In this document: piece by piece, positions 21,655 to 28,250 of the stretch
Layout of the letters: the number at the start of each line of letters is the position of its first letter
How positions within the stretch are numbered: the stretch's first letter is position 1
Virus record (IMG/VR): IMGVR_UViG_3300041955_000884
Location: 1 to 64,000 of that record
DNA length: 64,000 nucleotides
Source: a virus
Reading direction: 5' to 3' (one strand)
Notes under the pieces: model-generated
Database searches by the model: none
What the model was told of the DNA's origin: nothing
Seen by the model: the letters and a program-made list of their open reading frames with translations, nothing else
Program-made: the position numbers and the translations under genes

Positions 21655-22041
21655 TCAGGTCTCCAGAAGGATGGCACCGCTGCCATCCTCGAGTTCGATG
21701 TCGTCAATGCCATCCTCGAGCAGGATGAAGTCGCCTGCCGGGGCTGGCGGGGCTGGCGGGTTGAGGTAGAAGCAGTTGTCGCCGCCGCTGGTGGCGCCAT
21801 TGGAGAAGCCGTCCAGGAATGGTTCCCACTGGCCGCAGCCGCCTTGGCCCAGCGGGACACGAACCCCGCCGAGGCCCATGTTGTCGTCACTGCGCCAGAT
21901 GATGGTCGACTCGGATGCGGTGAGCGGGCTGGGGTCCGCAGTCCAAGCGTTCCAACTGGCCAGCCGGCCGGAAGCTCCCTGGCCCGTATCGACGAACCGG
22001 GGCGCGTTGGCAGCCGGGGGAAATGCAAGGAAGCTAGCCAC
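21655..22041 (-). CDS. tail-region protein with LEDG repeats
   Basis: FILLEDGIDDIELEDGSGAILLET C-terminus; GTG start. Confidence 0.6.
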   Translation of the reverse strand: MASFLAFPPAANAPRFVDTGQGASGRLASWNAWTADPSPLTASESTIIWRSDDNMGLGGVRVPLGQGGCGQWEPFLDGFSNGATSGGDNCFYLNPPAPPAPAGDFILLEDGIDDIELEDGSGAILLET

Positions 22042-22633
22042 ATATCAGCTCCAGCGACGACTGAGCGGCCGCGTGGCGCGCGCGCGGCGCCGCCGCCCAT
22101 CGCTCGCGCTGAAGACAGCCGCATGATTTTGACAAGCCGCGCCTAGCACTGTTGACGGACAGCAGTTTTTCCGTCCCGCAAATGCACCGACACAGCCATT
22201 TCCGCTCAAGGCCGACCATCGGGCCAGCGGACAGCACAGTCCAACGGCCAAAAACGTCGCCTGGATTAGTCTTGCAGATGCGTCGGAGCGCTCCGGCATT
22301 GGTGCTCGCCTCGGCGCGACTATTGTAGCCGAACGGCTTCCTGTTCGCCTGATAGGCCGAAATCAGCGCGTCCTCGTAGCCAAGCAGGTCTTCGGGACGG
22401 CACGCCAAAACTTGGCGGAAGGCGAAGGCGCCCTCGCCATGCTTGTTCCACGCGTTTTGAAGCGACGGACTGCGAGCGCGACGGCCGCGAAGGTCACAGC
22501 GGTGGCGCTGCAGCCTGTACCGGACGTGCTTGGAGCTGCCGATATAGCGCCGGCCACTCTCGATGTGGACAATCTCGTAGACGCCAACGTCCAACGGTCT
22601 GCCGCCAGTCGCGAGGGAGGAGATGCTCACCAT
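22034..22633 (-). CDS. GIY-YIG homing endonuclease
   Basis: GVYEIVHIESGRRYIGSS...R, LQNAWNKHG, GYN, then FGRWTV...WLCRCICG...SKSCGC; TGATG-coupled to the tailspike. Confidence 0.88.
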   Translation of the reverse strand: MVSISSLATGGRPLDVGVYEIVHIESGRRYIGSSKHVRYRLQRHRCDLRGRRARSPSLQNAWNKHGEGAFAFRQVLACRPEDLLGYEDALISAYQANRKPFGYNSRAEASTNAGALRRICKTNPGDVFGRWTVLSAGPMVGLERKWLCRCICGTEKLLSVNSARRGLSKSCGCLQRERWAAAPRARHAAAQSSLELICG

Positions 22634-25600
22634 CAGTGGGTCATCACGTTCGCGGTCATGGCGCCGCTGTAGGAAATCACGACGCTCTCGTTCGGGCCGA
22701 GGCCGACAGTGAAGGGAGCAGAAGCCGACGTGGCCACGGGCAGCAGGTGCGTGCCATTGTACGTCACTGAATTGATTGAAGTCGTGGCGCTGAGGTAAAG
22801 CGTCTGCGGCGACGGTCCCGCGGTGTAAGTCCACGGCGAGGCCGAAGCGGACAGCGTCGATGAGCCAACGGGGTTGTAGCCGTTGTTGTCGAGCACGCGG
22901 ATGGCGGTGGCCGTGGCGGAAACCGAGATCGTCGAGGAACCGAAACCCCCGGCGAAGCTGTTGCCTTGGATGATGCCGCCCGTTGCCGAAGGCCCGATGG
23001 TGATGCCCGTCGTCGTCGGCGTCGCCGAGCGCAGCGTGTTGGCAGCAAGGTTGAAGTACTCCGTGCTGTCCACGTTGAGGCCGGCATCGGCCGCCGTTCC
23101 GATGCCCTGCCAGGCGTTTCCGGTCACGGTCATCGCGGTGACCCAGATACCTCCGGTATCGCTCGGCACGCTGAGGCCGGTCTGGGTGTCCTGCATCTCG
23201 TTGCCGTCGATGAGGATTTGCGCCAGGGTTCCGGTGCTGCTGCGCTGGATTTCGACGGCGGGGCCAAGGCTAACCTGCGAAATCGAATTGTCCCCGATGA
23301 GGACGCCGCCAGCCGCCTGGGAAGTCGAAGTGTACATGTAGAGGATGCCACCGGCCGCGCACTCCGTGATGGTATTGCCCACGGCCCGGAAGCCGCCAGC
23401 ACCGGCCCATCTCACGCCCACGGCGGTCGTGGATGACGTGGAACCGTAAATTTCATTGTTGGCGAGGTCCACGTCGACGGAGGAGGCAAGCTCGGCCCCG
23501 GTGGTCGAGAAGCCGACAATGAAGCAGCCGTCCATCACAAAGGCGCCGCTGTTCTGAACCAGGATGCCGGCGTTGGAGTAGACGATGGCCGTGTCGCGGA
23601 CCCGGCTGGCGACGTTGTTCGTCGAGTTCACGTTGATGGTCATGGCGTAAACGCCAGGGGACTGGGCTGCGGGCGGGTAGTAGAGCTGGAGATCCTCGGT
23701 GGTGATGGGAGCCGTGGTGTTGAAGGCAAAGCAGGTCGTGGCCGAGGACGGCGAGATGACGGACTGGCCGAGTCCGTCGCCGAAAATCTTCATCCCAGTC
23801 GTGATGCTGATTTGCGCCGTGATGCGATAGACATCCGTCGGCACGTACATCGCATTCGGCGCAGCCGCGTTGGCACATGCCTGAATTGCCACCGTGTCGT
23901 CAGTCACGCCGTTCCCGGTCGCCCCGAACCATTTCACCGAGAACGGATTTCCGCCCGTCTCTCGGTACCAGTTGCGGCTCAGGCCGTCAGCGATGATAGA
24001 CCCGCCGTTCGGCGAGGCCGTGCTGGATGGGAACGGAGCGAACATCCCCTCCCCGCCGTCCGTTGCGTTGTAGTAGCCGAGGAGCCAGAGCGGCATCGTC
24101 GCTGGCCCGGTGTAAGCGGCGAGTGCCGCAACATTGGCGATCTGGCCGACGCTATATTCCCCGAACCCGACATTGTTGAGGACGTAGACGGCGGTTGCGG
24201 TGGCCGACACGGAGACGGCCGGAGGGACGAATGAGCCGGCGAAGTTGTTCCCCTGGATATTGACGCCCACGCACGACGGGCCGATGACAATCCCGGCCGT
24301 GGTCGGCGTCGCCGAGCGCAGCGTGTTGCCGAGAATGTTAACGTATTCGGCAGTGTCAATCTCGAAGCCGTAGTCGGCTGGAGTGCCGGGACCCTGCCAG
24401 GTATTGCCGGTCACGGCCATGGCATTGACCCAGATGCCGCCGGTATCGCTCGGCACGCTCAGGCCGCCCTGGCAGTCCTGAAGCACGTTCCCGGAGATGA
24501 CGATTTGGGCTACCGTCCCGGTGCTGCTGCGGACGAGCCTGATAGCCGGGCCGCTATCCGCCGAGAAGATCTCATTGTCGGCGATAACGACGCCGCCGTT
24601 CGCCGGGGTGCCGATGTAGTTGTAGAGAATGCCGCCGGACGCCGCTTCCGTGATGGTATTGCCCACGACGCGAAGGGCGCCAGCAGCAGTCAGATTCAGC
24701 CCCGTCGCTGCCGCTCCAGCGCCGTAAAGCTCGCAGTTCGTGATATTCACGTCGATGGAGGACGAAATCACCGCGCAGGTGGTCGAGCACCCCACGATGA
24801 AGCAACCGTCCATCACGAAGGCGCCGGAGTTCTGCACCAGAATGCCGGCGTTGGCGTAGATGATGGCGGTGTCCCGAACCCGGCTGGCCACATTGTCCGA
24901 GGAGGACACATCGAACGTCATGGCATAGACGCCGGAGGACTGGGCCGCAGGCGCGTAGTAAAGCTGCAGGTCCTCGACGGTGACAGGCGCGGTCGTATTG
25001 AACGCCAGGGCGGTGGTGGCGGAGGACGGCGAGAATACGGATTCCCCGAGACCTGCACCGAAAATCTTGATCCCAGTCGTGATGCTGATTTGCTTCGAGA
25101 TGGCGTACACGTCCGACGGCACGTACATCGGGTTCGGGGCGGCTGCGTTGGCGCAGGCCTGGATGGCCGCAGTGTCATCAGTCACGCCATCGCCGACGGC
25201 ACCGAACCATTTCACGGAGAACGGATTTCCGCCGGTCTCGCGGTACCAGTTCCGCGCCAGGCCGTCGGCCAGAATGGTGCCGCCGTTCGGGGAGGCTGTG
25301 CTGGAGGGGAACGGCGCGAGCATGCCCTCCCCGCCGTCGGTCGGGTTGTAGTACCCCATCAGCCAGAGAGGCCCCGTCGCTGGCCCCGTATAGGCGCTCA
25401 GGGCGGCGACATTCGCGATCTGGCCGACGTAACCGACGCCTGATGCCGAGGGGCTAAGCGAAGCAATCTCCTCCTCCAGCGTGGTGATCTCCGTCTGGAG
25501 CTGCTGGAGGCACATCATCTGGTAGTCGAACTCGGTCTCGATGGCCGCGAAGGTCGGCCCCTGGTTCTGCAGGCTTGTGGCCTGGATGAGGGGCAGGATG

Positions 25601-26177: not shown

Positions 26178-26207
26178 TTGACGGGAGCGCAAGAACCGGA
26201 ATAAACC
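26178..26207 (+). promoter_or_regulatory. promoter of the protein-ncRNA unit
   Basis: TTGACG(26178-83) with A-rich -10 region (ATAAAC/TAAACC) 17-18 bp downstream. Confidence 0.55.
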
Positions 26208-26255
26208 GTCGCTGCACAGCAAGTGCCCAGAAAACTCAGCATGAAAGGTCCCGCA

Positions 26256-27020
26256 ATGGCAAAGCTCCATGAGGTCCTGGCCGTCGAAAGCGGCCTCCAG
26301 GCCACGGCGAAGAAGGTCAATGAGGAGACGATTCGCACCTTCGGCAAGAAAGATGAGCACTTCATCGAGACGGTGAAGGCCATCACCCACTTCGCCGAGG
26401 AGGACAAGCATCTCGACACCACCGAGTCCAAGGCGATGGTGACGACCGTCTTCGACAAGCTGCTCTACACCGCCGGACCGAACATCAAGGCACTGGACGC
26501 CTACCTCCAAAAGGAGGCCACCAACCAGAAGGCCGTCGCCGATCTCGTCGTGGGCGAGACCACGTTGGCCACGGCGATGCCGGCCACGGTTCTCCTCGGA
26601 CTGGAGACCAAACTGGCGGAACTCCGCGCGGTCTACGATGCCATCCCGACGCTGGCGCCGGGTCCGACATGGGTCGAAGACGGCGACAGGCGCGCCGACG
26701 GAGGCGTCTACCGCTCCGAGCACCCCGACGTCACGTTCCGCACCCGCAGGACCGTGAAGCCCATCATCATGGCGCCGGCGACGAAAGAGCATCCGGCCCA
26801 GGTCCAGGCCATCCAGGAGGACGTGCCCATCGCGAAAATCGTGATGCAGCACTGGAGCGGCATGATCACCTCGGCGGAGAAGTCCGACCTGCTCGGCCGC
26901 GTTGACAGATTGCTTCGCGCCGTGAAGCGCGCCCGGCAGCGCGCCAACATGCAGGAGGTCGAGAACCGGAAGATCGGAAAGGCCTTGTTCGATTTCATCC
27001 ACGACGGTATCGTGGGATGA
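26256..27020 (+). CDS. uncharacterised alpha-helical protein (MAKLHEVLAVE type) heading the ncRNA locus
   Basis: AAAGG RBS, ATG 26256, 254 aa, strong GC3 codon bias; APATKEHPAQVQ and RAVKRARQRAN motifs. Confidence 0.9.
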   Translation: MAKLHEVLAVESGLQATAKKVNEETIRTFGKKDEHFIETVKAITHFAEEDKHLDTTESKAMVTTVFDKLLYTAGPNIKALDAYLQKEATNQKAVADLVVGETTLATAMPATVLLGLETKLAELRAVYDAIPTLAPGPTWVEDGDRRADGGVYRSEHPDVTFRTRRTVKPIIMAPATKEHPAQVQAIQEDVPIAKIVMQHWSGMITSAEKSDLLGRVDRLLRAVKRARQRANMQEVENRKIGKALFDFIHDGIVG

Positions 27021-27027
27021 CCAGTTC

Positions 27028-27099
27028 GCCGGGATAGCTTAGTGACAGAGCGTCCACCTCGTCAGTGGAAGACGGCGGTTCAACTCCGTTCTCCTGGCA
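27028..27099 (+). tRNA. degenerate tRNA-Thr(CGT)-like element
   Basis: GCCGGGA/TCCTGGC acceptor, GCTT/GAGC D-stem, TCCAC-CTCGTCA-GTGGA anticodon arm, GGCGG-TTCAACT-CCGTT T-arm; lacks D-loop GG, has C37 and one extra C. Confidence 0.7.
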
Positions 27100-27111
27100 C
27101 CCCTCTCCCAT

Positions 27112-27380
27112 CAGGGACAGCTTCAGCCTCAACCTCAGCGTGACGACGAAGTAGCCTCAGCTTTGTGCCCTGAAAACTTACTCGCGAAACACCGGAAATA
27201 GGCGCGAGACGGCTCCGATAACGCCAGACGCGGGTTCGATGCCCGCGCCCCCAACCAACTTGATGGGGGCTAGCACAGTGGCAGTGCAGGCGCTTGAAGA
27301 TGAGGCCGTAGTGTCGCTGAAAAGCGGTGTGCGAAGGGAAATGCGCTTTCCGTAAGCGCCAGACTTGAAATCTGGTTCCC
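27112..27380 (+). ncRNA. structured ncRNA with circularly permuted tRNA domain, hexamer-repeat domain and anticodon-arm mimic
   Basis: T-arm 27230-46, acceptor 3' strand plus ACCA 27247-57, acceptor 5' strand 27264-70, D-arm 27273-87, closing helices 27222-25/27289-92 and 27209-15/27302-09. Confidence 0.85.
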
Positions 27381-27386
27381 AAACCC

Positions 27387-27420
27387 GGGGGGTGCCGTAG
27401 GGATTGCGGCATCCCCTTTT
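27387..27420 (+). terminator. intrinsic terminator ending the ncRNA unit
   Basis: GGGGGTGCCGTA-GGGAT-TGCGGCATCCCC followed by TTTT. Confidence 0.85.
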
Positions 27421-27503
27421 GGTTGCTACGGGTTCTGCCCGAGCGCGCCGAACGGTCCGGCCGCCCCGTTGCACAAAGTCGCCCCAGATGCTACATTCGC
27501 GGC

Positions 27504-28250
27504 ATGGCACCGACAGTCATCAGCCGAGAGGAAGCGCGCGCGGCTGGCCTGAAGCGCTTCTTCACCGGCGAGCCATGCCCGAGGGGCCACATCGCGGAAC
27601 GCTACGTGCTGAAAGGCCGCTGCGTCGTCTGCGCGAAAGAGGCCGGAGCCGCTTGGATTGCAGCGCACCCCGAAAAGGCCTTGGAGTACTCCCGTCGGAA
27701 TGAGGCGAAGCACCGGGAGAGGCGCCGCGCGAAAAACCGTCGCGTCAAGGCCAAGTGGCGCGCGGCACACCCAAAGGAGAACAAGCGTCGGCTGAAGGAG
27801 TGGCGCGACGCGAACCTTGAGAAGTCACGACAGCACTCGCGGGACTGGGGCAACGCTAACCGCGGGAAGCGCGCGGCTACTGCAAAGCAATGGCGGCAGG
27901 ACAACCCAGAACGAGCGCTGGAGCTGGCGCACGAATGGCGCGAACGGAACCCGGAGCGCTACCGCATAGCAAAGAATGCGGCGAGCCACAGACGCCGCGT
28001 CAGGAAGCTCGCGGCGGAGGGAAACCACACCGCTGATGACATCCAAGCCCTGTGCGCGAAGCAGCACGGCAAGTGCGCAAACTGCCGTCGCGGCATTGGC
28101 CGTTGCTTCGAGGTAGACCACATCCAGCCACTGACGAAGGGCGGCTCAAATTGGCCGTCAAATCTCCAGCTTCTGTGCCCGCGCTGTAACCGCAAAAAGC
28201 ACAACAAGGACCCCATCGCCTGGGCGCGGGAGAACGGCCGTTTGCTCTGA
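27504..28250 (+). CDS. HNH endonuclease
   Basis: FFTGEPCPRGH...CVVC N-terminus, CANC...VDHIQPLTKGGSNWPSNLQLLCPRCN; own promoter TTGCAC-17-TACATT 6 nt before ATG. Confidence 0.9.
   Translation: MAPTVISREEARAAGLKRFFTGEPCPRGHIAERYVLKGRCVVCAKEAGAAWIAAHPEKALEYSRRNEAKHRERRRAKNRRVKAKWRAAHPKENKRRLKEWRDANLEKSRQHSRDWGNANRGKRAATAKQWRQDNPERALELAHEWRERNPERYRIAKNAASHRRRVRKLAAEGNHTADDIQALCAKQHGKCANCRRGIGRCFEVDHIQPLTKGGSNWPSNLQLLCPRCNRKKHNKDPIAWARENGRLL

What the first reader, a model, noticed from the sequence alone, without database searches (positions are those of the whole stretch)
27209..27309. Circularly permuted tRNA with internal CCA and no anticodon loop
Seen in order: ACGCC-AGAC, T-arm GCGGG-TTCGATG-CCCGC, acceptor 3' strand GCCCCCA-A-CCA, 6-nt linker, acceptor 5' strand TGGGGGC (7/7 pairs), TA, D-arm GCAC-AGTGGCA-GTGC, A, GGCG. 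The anticodon stem extends into ACGGCTC/GAGGCCGT, joining the rest of the RNA. Inference: removal of the linker would give a two-piece RNA with a chargeable or adduct-accepting CCA end (U1-A72, A73, no G3-U70).
Basis: seen in the sequence. Interest (0 to 1): 0.9.

Follow-up and report, generated by a model that had tools for sequence, protein, structure and literature searches.

The report
Phage tRNA-mimic RNA beside DUF7873
The flagged stretch is a real phage small-RNA domain shaped like a tRNA turned inside out, with a built-in CCA end and no anticodon loop. It belongs to a large family that is always encoded just after a protein gene of unknown function (DUF7873); I found this family in neither Rfam nor the papers I searched, and it is probably cut open to make a two-piece, tRNA-ended RNA.

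Summary
Positions 27226-27288 form a circularly permuted tRNA body: T arm, 7-bp acceptor stem, A73-CCA, 6-nt linker, D arm. It sits on a long helix made by its own flanks. The whole RNA runs from about 27028/27102 to a terminator at 27420, behind a DUF7873 gene in a 107-kb phage.

- **Known families:** its topology is that of YrlA Y RNAs, but it fails YrlA membership. Rfam gives 32.5 bits against a cut-off of 69, the Ro60-binding motif is absent, and neither this phage nor five others carry a Ro60 gene.
- **Own family:** 69 of 86 DUF7873 loci carry the same element downstream on the same strand, and none on the other strand. A model built without this phage scores it at 66.5 bits.
- **Conservation:** CCA follows the acceptor stem in 55 of 60 distinct members while N73 varies. 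The stems and the 15-48 tertiary pair covary.
- **Processing:** one metatranscriptome fragment ends exactly at the CCA.

The best reading is that RNase P opens the linker, giving a two-piece CCA-ended tRNA mimic that works with DUF7873. Its function is unknown.

This scan found the family before on other DNA (e1-2703945, e1-5869369). I found it in neither Rfam nor the papers searched.

The parts
26256..27020 (+). DUF7873 protein gene (254 aa), the conserved partner of the RNA
   Evidence: Pfam PF25283, E 2e-72. 774 homologues, typically 254 aa. It is the only protein family shared by all 86 related loci. Metatranscriptome contigs cover 26202-26708.
27028..27101 (+). tRNA-Thr(CGT), 7 nt after the DUF7873 stop; present only in this sub-lineage of the family
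   Evidence: ARAGORN and Rfam tRNA at 48.3 bits. The same position holds a tRNA-Thr in L187, L188 and L189. A second tRNA-Thr(CGT) lies in the phage's main tRNA cluster. RNA-library contigs join its 3' two-thirds to the downstream RNA.
27112..27172 (+). Stem (CAGGGA/GCCCTG) closing a loop of short repeats
   Evidence: RNAalifold consensus of four relatives, columns 11-16 paired with 66-71. The repeat unit differs in L189.
27185..27225 (+). 5' strand of the long helix ('rod') that carries the tRNA-like head; includes ACGGCT 27209-27214 and CGCC 27222-27225
   Evidence: RNAalifold consensus: 19 of 49 pairs keep pairing through changes on both sides. The same flank-to-flank pairing appears in folds of about 60 family members.
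27226..27246 (+). Variable loop AGAC (C48 = 27229) and T arm GCGGG-TTCGATG-CCCGC
   Evidence: T-stem pairs covary. The G15-C48 / A15-U48 tertiary pair covaries, 43 and 12 of 60.
27247..27257 (+). Acceptor 3' strand GCCCCCA, discriminator A73, encoded CCA (27255-27257)
   Evidence: All 7 acceptor pairs covary. CCA is present in 55 of 60 distinct members while N73 varies. An RNA-library insert ends at 27257.
27258..27263 (+). Linker ACTTGA, proposed to be removed (RNase P cut after 27263, then trimming back to 27257)
   Evidence: The linker is neither sequence- nor length-conserved: 3-39 nt after CCA across the family. The processing itself is inferred.
27264..27270 (+). Acceptor 5' strand TGGGGGC (U1-A72, G3-C70)
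27271..27288 (+). U8 A9, D arm GCAC-AGTGGCA-GTGC (A14, G15, G18, G19, A21), A26
   Evidence: U8 in 59/60, A14 in 60/60, A21 in 55/60. D-stem pairs covary.
27289..27333 (+). 3' strand of the rod: GGCG, internal loop with conserved ATGAG (27300-27304), GGCCGT, and a conserved GAAAAG loop (27319-27324)
   Evidence: ATGAG and GAAA invariant in four relatives. (a GAAAG-like loop recurs across the family).
27336..27380 (+). Three-way junction GGGAA/TTCCC holding a 6-bp hairpin and an anticodon-arm look-alike CCAGA-CTTGAAA-TCTGG; a remnant of the ordinary tRNA that follows the rod in most relatives
   Evidence: MFE fold. Weak tRNA-Sec hit, 21 bits. Relatives carry an ARAGORN/Rfam tRNA at this position. 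The stem is conserved or covaries while the loop differs among close kin.
27387..27420 (+). Intrinsic terminator (14-bp stem, then TTTT)
   Evidence: The only + strand terminator-like site between the DUF7873 gene and the next gene. Relatives have an equivalent hairpin.

Best explanation
Positions 27209-27309 are the tRNA-shaped head of a structured phage RNA of about 320-390 nt (27028 or 27102 to 27420). The RNA lies on the same strand as the upstream DUF7873 gene, is probably co-transcribed with it, and ends at an intrinsic terminator.

The head is a circularly permuted tRNA body. It has a T arm, a 7-bp acceptor stem, A73-CCA, a 6-nt linker and a D arm, and all the elbow contacts are possible. 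Its anticodon-like stem continues into a long helix formed by the RNA's own 5' and 3' flanks.

It belongs to a widespread family of DUF7873-linked tRNA mimics that I did not find catalogued. The family shares the architecture of YrlA Y RNAs, but not Ro60 or its binding motif.

Most likely mechanism (inferred): host RNase P recognises the T arm, 7-bp stem and CCA as a pre-tRNA and cuts between 27263 and 27264. Exonucleases then trim the six linker bases back to CCA at 27257. The 5' piece (to 27257) and the 3' piece (from 27264) stay together through the acceptor stem and the rod. The result is a two-piece particle with a free tRNA-like CCA end and no anticodon.

With DUF7873 bound (inferred from strict gene linkage only), it would act as an adaptor or decoy towards a factor that recognises the tRNA elbow and acceptor end, for example a tRNA-processing enzyme or a tRNA-targeting host defence enzyme.

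Shown: the structure, family membership, covariation, CCA conservation, DUF7873 linkage, and absence of Ro60 from the phage records. Weakly shown: transcription of the + strand and a 3' end at the CCA. Inferred: RNase P cleavage, DUF7873 binding, and the function.
For: Structure:
- All elements are read in the sequence.
- The independent covariance model R1 scores the site at 66.5 bits, E 9e-15.
- On 27 relatives, 92.8% of cells pair and 20 of 21 pairs change on both sides; covariation score 0.85 against 0.23 in shuffles and at most 0.18 when partners are slid. The T, acceptor and D stems were pre-selected for pairing by the parser that picked these 27. The anticodon-like stem was not imposed by the parser, and all 5 of its pairs covary.
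- The tertiary pair 15-48 covaries (G-C 43, A-U 12 of 60). U8, A14 and A21 are nearly invariant.

Family and partner:
- 69 of 86 loci fetched through the DUF7873 protein carry the element 100-600 nt downstream on the same strand, and 0 on the other strand.
- Seven of nine perfectly paired, CCA-bearing permuted elements found by a DNA pattern alone turned out to lie next to DUF7873.
- No other protein family is shared by these loci.
- Cultured Rhizobium, Klebsiella, Ralstonia and Gordonia phages have the element in the unannotated gap after their DUF7873 gene.

CCA and processing:
- C74 is present in 59/60, C75 in 56/60 and A76 in 57/60 members, while N73 is A 11, G 21, T 21, C 7, and the linker varies from 3 to 39 nt.
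- A metatranscriptome contig (X19) spans 27039-27258 between TruSeq adapters. Because the ligated form is insert + A + GATCGG, the insert most likely ends at 27257, the A of the CCA. A second sample (X20) gives 27043-27246. The adapter orientation fits a + strand RNA.
- Precedent: M. smegmatis YrlA, with a 7-bp acceptor stem, is cut by RNase P in vitro and carries CCA in vivo (PMC4201824; 10.1101/312249).

Not Ro60-dependent:
- No TROVE hit in this 94%-complete phage record, nor in five other phage records that carry such elements.
- The GNCGAAN0-1G motif occurs in 2 of 60 members and not here.
Against: - The end at 27257 rests on one assembled contig. It may be copies of one molecule, a fragmentation or random-priming site, or DNA carried over into the RNA library.
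- Members with long linkers pair CCA with UGG, and L268 has CCU/AGG. In those members the CCA may be conserved as part of a helix or a protein contact rather than as a free end.
- S. Typhimurium YrlA is not cleaved (PMC4201824), so a closed loop is a viable state.
- Remote members such as Gordonia phage Ronaldo, and one of the two copies in Ralstonia phiRSL1, lack CCA.
- DUF7873 binding is inferred from synteny alone.
Confidence: 0.6

Rival explanations
1. Closed-loop tRNA mimic. The RNA is never opened. The ACCA-containing loop stays intact, as in Salmonella YrlA, and the conserved CCA serves as a contact for DUF7873 or another factor, or as part of a helix.
For: Most characterised YrlA RNAs keep a closed acceptor loop (10.1101/312249). 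In long-linker relatives CCA pairs with UGG just before the acceptor 5' strand, with one covarying case, CCU/AGG in L268.
Against: The family has a canonical 7-bp stem, a variable N73 and then CCA, which is exactly the tRNA 3'-end pattern. CCA is kept in 55/60 members, including those with short linkers where it is unpaired, as here. One RNA-library insert ends at 27257. M. smegmatis YrlA, with a 7-bp stem, is cleaved.
Confidence: 0.2
2. Cis-acting 3'-UTR device. The tRNA-like head is mainly a processing or stability signal for the DUF7873 mRNA, in the way RNase P cleavage at the MALAT1 tRNA-like element forms that RNA's 3' end. It would not be a trans-acting RNA subunit.
For: The element always lies just after the DUF7873 stop on the same strand, with no terminator in between. 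RNase P-made 3' ends of upstream RNAs are known (reviewed in 10.1101/312249).
Against: The full set of elbow contacts, the covarying Levitt pair, the long conserved rod with invariant loops, and a second tRNA module are far more than a cleavage signal needs. In this lineage a complete tRNA-Thr already separates the gene from the RNA.
Confidence: 0.1
3. A true YrlA Y RNA that uses the host's Ro60 (Rsr) protein.
For: Full-length sub-threshold match to Rfam YrlA: 32.5 bits here and 36.2 bits in L002. Same permuted topology. Ro60-encoding phages with YrlA are known (PMC4201824).
Against: The score is under half of the gathering score. The same model also gives sub-threshold hits in 6 of 14 control genomes. 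The Ro60-binding motif GNCGAAN0-1G is absent. No TROVE gene is present in six phage records. The strict linkage is to DUF7873 instead.
Confidence: 0.06
4. No function. The element is a decayed junction of tandem tRNA genes (the 3' half of one, the 5' half of the next) or debris from an integration site.
For: Tandem tRNA junctions are the known false positives of YrlA-type models (PMC4201824). They also give the weaker R1 hits (38.7 bits or less) in this phage's own tRNA cluster.
Against: No flanking tRNA halves exist. The two acceptor strands pair with each other 7/7. The structure is kept through compensatory changes in dozens of phages, at a fixed position relative to one gene.
Confidence: 0.02
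5. A phage two-piece (permuted) tmRNA.
For: Same gene order as permuted ssrA: T arm, acceptor 3' strand, CCA, excised spacer, acceptor 5' strand. Weak local hits to the tmRNA models.
Against: The third pair is G3-C70, not G3-U70; only 2 of 60 relatives have G-U at 3-70. ARAGORN, which detects permuted tmRNAs, finds none. Rfam tmRNA_permuted gives 14.4 bits against a cut-off of 47. No conserved tag reading frame: the short frames ending in TAA differ in length and sequence between the window and L002. The D arm is full, unlike tmRNA.
Confidence: 0.02

Closest known systems
YrlA (Y RNA-like A; Rfam RF02553; Chen et al. 2014, PMC4201824; crystal structure, Wang et al. 2018, 10.1101/312249)
   Same: A circularly permuted tRNA body (T arm, acceptor-like stem, D arm, tRNA tertiary contacts including a covarying 15-48 pair), no anticodon loop, and an anticodon-like stem that continues into a long helix made by the RNA's 5' and 3' parts. 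Also found in phages.
   Different: No Ro60/TROVE gene nearby, no GNCGAAN0-1G motif, and a score below the Rfam cut-off. The acceptor stem is a canonical 7 bp followed by N73-CCA as the family rule, whereas typical YrlA has a 6-bp or longer stem and 'lacks a free CCA end'. The partner gene is DUF7873.
Mycobacterium smegmatis YrlA (Chen et al. 2014)
   Same: A 7-bp acceptor stem. It is cut by RNase P into two halves that stay Ro60-bound, and the 5' half ends in CCA. This is the direct precedent for the proposed two-piece maturation.
   Different: There, CA is added after cleavage; here, CCA is encoded. That RNA is Ro60-bound and encoded upstream of rsr.
Two-piece tmRNA from permuted ssrA genes (alpha-, some beta-proteobacteria, cyanobacteria; from my own knowledge, Keiler et al. 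2000)
   Same: A permuted gene in which the acceptor 3' strand and CCA precede a discarded spacer and the acceptor 5' strand. The mature RNA is two base-paired pieces with a free CCA end.
   Different: No G3-U70, no tag reading frame, a full D arm, and no match to the tmRNA models.
Permuted tRNA genes of Cyanidioschyzon merolae and some archaea (Soma et al. 2007, as cited in 10.1101/312249)
   Same: The gene order is 3' half, linker, 5' half, and the acceptor loop is opened by RNase P or RNase Z.
   Different: Those are spliced and circularised to restore a real anticodon loop and become decoding tRNAs. Here the ends run into a helix of more than 25 bp with no anticodon loop, and bacteria are not known to have that splicing machinery.
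MALAT1 mascRNA-type tRNA-like elements
   Same: A tRNA-like fold used as an RNase P substrate, so that cleavage creates the 3' end of the upstream RNA.
   Different: Eukaryotic, not permuted, and CCA is added after cleavage; unrelated in sequence.

Membership tests
YrlA / bacterial Y RNA (RF02553) | tRNA-like domain with T arm, D arm and acceptor-like stem in permuted order | tested here: met
YrlA / bacterial Y RNA (RF02553) | Reaches the Rfam gathering score (69 bits) | tested here: not met
   32.5 bits. The same model gives sub-threshold hits in 6 of 14 control genomes.
YrlA / bacterial Y RNA (RF02553) | GNCGAAN0-1G Ro60-contact motif near the 5' end (Chen 2014) | tested here: not met
   Absent from the 50 nt upstream of the head here, and present in only 2 of 60 relatives.
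YrlA / bacterial Y RNA (RF02553) | Encoded within about 4 kb of a Ro60 (TROVE) gene, on the same strand | tested here: not met
   No PF05731 hit in the 107-kb phage record (94% complete) or in five other phage records with such elements; the controls gave hits.
YrlA / bacterial Y RNA (RF02553) | Bound by Ro60/Rsr | not testable with these tools
   Needs immunoprecipitation; the host is unknown.
DUF7873-linked permuted tRNA mimic (not in Rfam; seen earlier by this scan) | Lies within 600 nt downstream of a DUF7873 gene on the same strand | tested here: met
   The gene ends at 27020 and the head starts at 27226. 69 of 86 family loci show the same layout.
DUF7873-linked permuted tRNA mimic (not in Rfam; seen earlier by this scan) | Matches a covariance model built from other members only | tested here: met
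   R1 (24 sequences, none from this phage or its two nearest kin): 66.5 bits, E 9e-15, full length.
DUF7873-linked permuted tRNA mimic (not in Rfam; seen earlier by this scan) | 7-bp acceptor stem followed by N73 and CCA | tested here: met
   GCCCCCA-A-CCA; 55 of 60 members.
DUF7873-linked permuted tRNA mimic (not in Rfam; seen earlier by this scan) | Head carried on a long helix formed by the 5' and 3' flanks, with a GAAAG-type loop on the 3' strand | tested here: met
DUF7873-linked permuted tRNA mimic (not in Rfam; seen earlier by this scan) | RNA bound by DUF7873 protein | not testable with these tools
   Only synteny is available.
Two-piece (permuted) tmRNA | G3-U70 alanine identity pair | tested here: not met
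   G27266-C27251.
Two-piece (permuted) tmRNA | Tag reading frame, and detection by ARAGORN or Rfam tmRNA_permuted | tested here: not met
   One search finds none; 14.4 bits against a cut-off of 47.
Permuted decoding tRNA gene (Cyanidioschyzon / archaeal type) | The ends can be joined to give a 7-nt anticodon loop on a 5-bp stem | tested here: not met
   The 4-bp stem leads into an asymmetric internal loop and then more than 25 further base pairs.

The most novel reading that the evidence does not exclude
The DUF7873 protein and this RNA form a Ro60-independent ribonucleoprotein whose RNA is matured like a tRNA into two pieces. Its free CCA end is then charged, extended or otherwise modified, by DUF7873 or by a host enzyme. 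Phages would use it as a bait or adaptor against host enzymes that attack tRNA acceptor ends or anticodon loops. The fast-changing anticodon-like loop of the attached second tRNA module would then reflect an arms race.
Probability: 0.12. Interest if true: 0.9.

Novelty: new variant of a known kind. Interest (0 to 1): 0.72.

Why it matters
tRNA mimics with a free CCA end are few (tmRNA, viral tRNA-like structures), and each revealed new biology. Here a whole family of phage and prophage RNAs keeps the complete tRNA elbow and acceptor end, has discarded the anticodon, and travels with a single protein of unknown fold instead of Ro60.

If the two-piece CCA-ended form is confirmed, the Y-RNA/YrlA idea extends to a second, unrelated protein partner. 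It would also show that RNase P-driven opening of permuted tRNA bodies is a regular maturation route in bacteria and phages, not an oddity of one mycobacterial RNA.

Because tRNAs are a main battlefield between phages and bacterial defences, the module is a good candidate for a counter-defence or tRNA-surveillance device. It can be tested directly: cultured phages of Rhizobium, Gordonia, Ralstonia, Vibrio and Klebsiella carry it.

Tried and rejected
- **blastn against 50,697 phage records:** no match for the RNA region.
- **Strict DNA patterns:** they found only one close viral relative (L002/L122) and one more in metagenomes (L172). Most pattern hits were tandem tRNA genes.
- **DUF7873 fold:** the AlphaFold model is good (pLDDT 83), but Foldseek against the PDB gave nothing at E <= 0.001. 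VIA-align gave only generic helical matches, Z 8.4 or less, including the FemA/FemX coiled-coil arm at Z about 7, which I do not trust.
- **Other protein libraries:** PHROGs and PADLOC gave no hit. The ESM Atlas gave only unnamed clusters at 0.8.
- **Literature:** no paper mentions DUF7873. Searches for permuted tRNA in phages or phage tRNA-like RNAs with CCA found nothing relevant.
- **Rfam at gathering score on 20 family loci:** only ordinary tRNA hits, none on the permuted element.
- **tmRNA reading:** short frames ending in TAA exist in the window and in L002 but are not conserved in length or sequence, so I rejected this reading.
- **K-turn reading of the ATGAG/CCGAT internal loop:** the bulge is one base short, so I did not claim it.
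- **Read laying:** runs X6 and X14 showed no contig over the RNA, and X19 and X20 showed none beyond 27258. With contigs such holes prove nothing.
- **Antisense ORFs 27080-27412 and 27178-27510:** no Pfam family.

Full report
**Observation.** The T arm is at 27230-27246, the acceptor 3' strand at 27247-27253, A73 at 27254 and CCA at 27255-27257. The linker is at 27258-27263, the acceptor 5' strand at 27264-27270 and the D arm at 27273-27287. The anticodon-like stem is CGCC/GGCG, and an outer stem ACGGCT(C)/GA-G-GCCGT follows it. The only correction is that the anticodon-like stem has four pairs, not five. ARAGORN calls only the neighbouring tRNA-Thr(CGT) at 27028-27101. At gathering score Rfam sees only that tRNA. 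A strict parser for this architecture finds one site in both strands of the window, against 0.01 expected from dinucleotide shuffles.

**First identification.** With relaxed thresholds, the best Rfam match after the tRNA is YrlA (RF02553). It matches full length at 27209-27312, but at 32.5 bits against a gathering score of 69. YrlA RNAs are bacterial and phage Y RNAs. Their effector domain is a circularly permuted tRNA with a loop-closed acceptor stem and no anticodon loop, bound through a 5' motif by Ro60 (PMC4201824; 10.1101/312249). The topology is therefore known. Membership fails on every other criterion:
- no TROVE/Ro60 gene in this 107-kb, 94%-complete phage record, nor in five other phage records that carry such elements;
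- no GNCGAAN0-1G motif;
- the YrlA model also gives sub-threshold hits in six control genomes.

**The real family.** The gene just upstream (26256-27020) is DUF7873. Earlier notes of this scan reported DUF7873 next to tRNA-mimic RNAs, so I tested the link.
- I fetched 86 loci through a DUF7873 protein alignment: 80 viral and 6 from MAGs. Of these, 69 carry a permuted tRNA-like element 100-600 nt downstream on the same strand. None carry one upstream or on the opposite strand, although many of the loci are full of tRNA genes. With a slightly relaxed T stem the count is 74.
- In the other direction, a DNA pattern scan found nine perfectly paired, CCA-bearing permuted elements. Seven lie directly after a DUF7873 gene. 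The five without CCA do not, so other permuted-mimic families also exist.
- No other protein family is shared among the 86 loci.
- A covariance model built from 24 members, leaving out this phage and its two closest kin, scores the window's element at 66.5 bits, E 9e-15. Its weaker hits elsewhere in the phage are junctions of tandem tRNA genes in a cluster of 25 tRNA genes at 77-83 kb.
- No Rfam family reaches its gathering score on the element in 20 diverse loci, and no paper mentions DUF7873.

**Structure evidence.** On 27 members, 92.8% of cells pair and 20 of 21 pairs change on both sides. The covariation score is 0.85, against 0.23 in shuffles and at most 0.18 with slid partners. The T, acceptor and D stems were pre-selected for pairing by the parser that chose these members. 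The anticodon-like stem was not imposed by my parser, and all five of its pairs covary. The tertiary Levitt pair covaries as it does in tRNA and YrlA: G15-C48 in 43 and A15-U48 in 12 of 60, never G-U. U8, A14, G18G19 and A21 are nearly invariant. An RNAalifold consensus of the window with L187, L188 and L189 shows that the flanks 27185-27225 and 27289-27333 pair into a long rod carrying the head; 19 of 49 pairs covary, and the ATGAG and GAAA loops are invariant. The same rod appears across the family.

**The CCA.** My parser did not require CCA. Yet in 60 non-identical DUF7873-linked elements, C74 is present in 59, C75 in 56 and A76 in 57 (CCA in 55). The discriminator is A 11, G 21, T 21, C 7, and the following linker ranges from 3 to 39 nt with no conserved sequence. 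That is the signature of a tRNA 3' end. [quoted passage not shown] Only 2 of 60 have G-U at 3-70. There is a caveat. In members with long linkers the CCA pairs with UGG next to the acceptor 5' strand, and one member has CCU/AGG. In those members the triplet could be a helix or contact element.

**Expression and ends.** Four metatranscriptome runs hold parts of the region, as contigs only. Two wetland runs cover the DUF7873 and HNH genes. In two samples of another study, short adapter-flanked contigs cover 27039-27258 and 27043-27246. The TruSeq junction reads insert + A + GATCGG, so the A at 27258 is most likely the A-tail, and the first insert ends at 27257, the last base of the CCA. The adapter orientation fits a + strand RNA in a dUTP-type library. 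Both inserts start 11-15 nt inside the tRNA-Thr. That fits a discrete RNA of about 230 nt running from the tRNA's 5' end (27028) to the CCA, after the usual 5' loss in second-strand synthesis; this last point is my inference. The chance that one of the four fragment ends falls within one base of either site is about 1%. Even so, this is one contig per sample, possibly copies of one molecule, and DNA carry-over is not excluded.

**Mechanism.** Two things are shown: a conserved, L-shaped, permuted tRNA body with a canonical acceptor end, and its strict linkage to DUF7873. The rest is inferred. RNase P treats the T arm, 7-bp stem and CCA as a pre-tRNA and cuts after 27263. Exonucleases trim to 27257, as in normal maturation of CCA-encoding bacterial tRNA genes. 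The two pieces stay paired through the acceptor stem and the rod. M. smegmatis YrlA is the experimental precedent, and permuted tmRNA genes mature in the same way (my own knowledge). The particle's function is open. I favour an adaptor or decoy for a factor that reads the tRNA elbow and acceptor end. Aminoacylation is unlikely by known identity rules but is not excluded.

**Rivals.**
- Closed-loop mimic (0.2)
- Cis-acting 3'-UTR processing signal (0.1)
- True YrlA using the host Ro60 (0.06)
- Decayed tandem tRNA genes (0.02)
- Two-piece tmRNA (0.02)

**Verdict.** The element is a new variant of the YrlA-type tRNA mimic: it is Ro60-independent, DUF7873-linked, and has an encoded CCA. This scan has met the family before on other DNA (e1-2703945, e1-5869369). 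I found it neither in Rfam nor in the papers searched.

Noticed in passing
window 27336-27380; L187 3817-3890; L188 3580-3653; L172: The module after the rod is an ordinary-topology tRNA in most relatives (ARAGORN and Rfam tRNA, 43-64 bits). It has a shortened acceptor stem in L187 and L188, and has lost its T arm in the window and L002. Its anticodon stem is conserved or covaries, but the 7-nt loop differs among very close kin: CTTGAAA, TTTAAGA, ATTGTAA, CTTGAGA, CTTTATA. Across the family the called anticodons vary widely (Thr, Ser, Ile, Gln, Met, Leu, Arg, Lys).
   Followed up: partly
window 27028-27101 and G000 about 77.2 kb: The tRNA-Thr(CGT) next to DUF7873 duplicates a tRNA-Thr(CGT) in the phage's main tRNA cluster (25 tRNA genes called, minus strand, 77-83 kb, outside the window). 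RNA-library contigs join its 3' part to the downstream RNA, so it may stay attached rather than being released.
   Followed up: partly
window 27112-27172; L187-L189 equivalents: A stem-closed loop of short repeats precedes the rod. The closing stem is conserved, but the repeat unit differs: CAGCTT-like here and in L187/L188, TCAAA-like in L189.
   Followed up: partly
window 27300-27304 and 27319-27324: ATGAG and a GAAA(A)G loop on the 3' strand of the rod are invariant in four relatives, and GAAAG-like loops recur across the family. They are candidate protein-binding sites. The ATGAG/CCGAT loop resembles a K-turn but does not fit one.
   Followed up: partly
L274 2371-2648 (Klebsiella phage KpLz-2_45); L275 2395-2691 (Ralstonia phage phiRSL1); also L215, L258, L260, L268: Some DUF7873 loci carry two permuted tRNA-like modules in tandem. 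The second often has CCT or no CCA, paired with AGG.
   Followed up: no
L034 (IMGVR_UViG_3300038829_000104); L062; L125; L143; L165; L186: Permuted tRNA-like elements with perfect acceptor closure but no DUF7873 in the held locus. L034 shows several repeated tRNA-like units. L165 shares the GGTGTGCGA box with the window's RNA. These are probably other families of permuted mimics.
   Followed up: no
window 27504-28250 (+) and 22034-22834 (-): Free-standing HNH and GIY-YIG endonuclease genes flank the module. The HNH gene is absent at the same place in L002, which suggests a mobile insertion.
   Followed up: no
L217, L227, L260: Three DUF7873 phage loci carry a tmRNA gene (called by ARAGORN) about 1.3-1.6 kb downstream of the tRNA mimic.
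   Followed up: no
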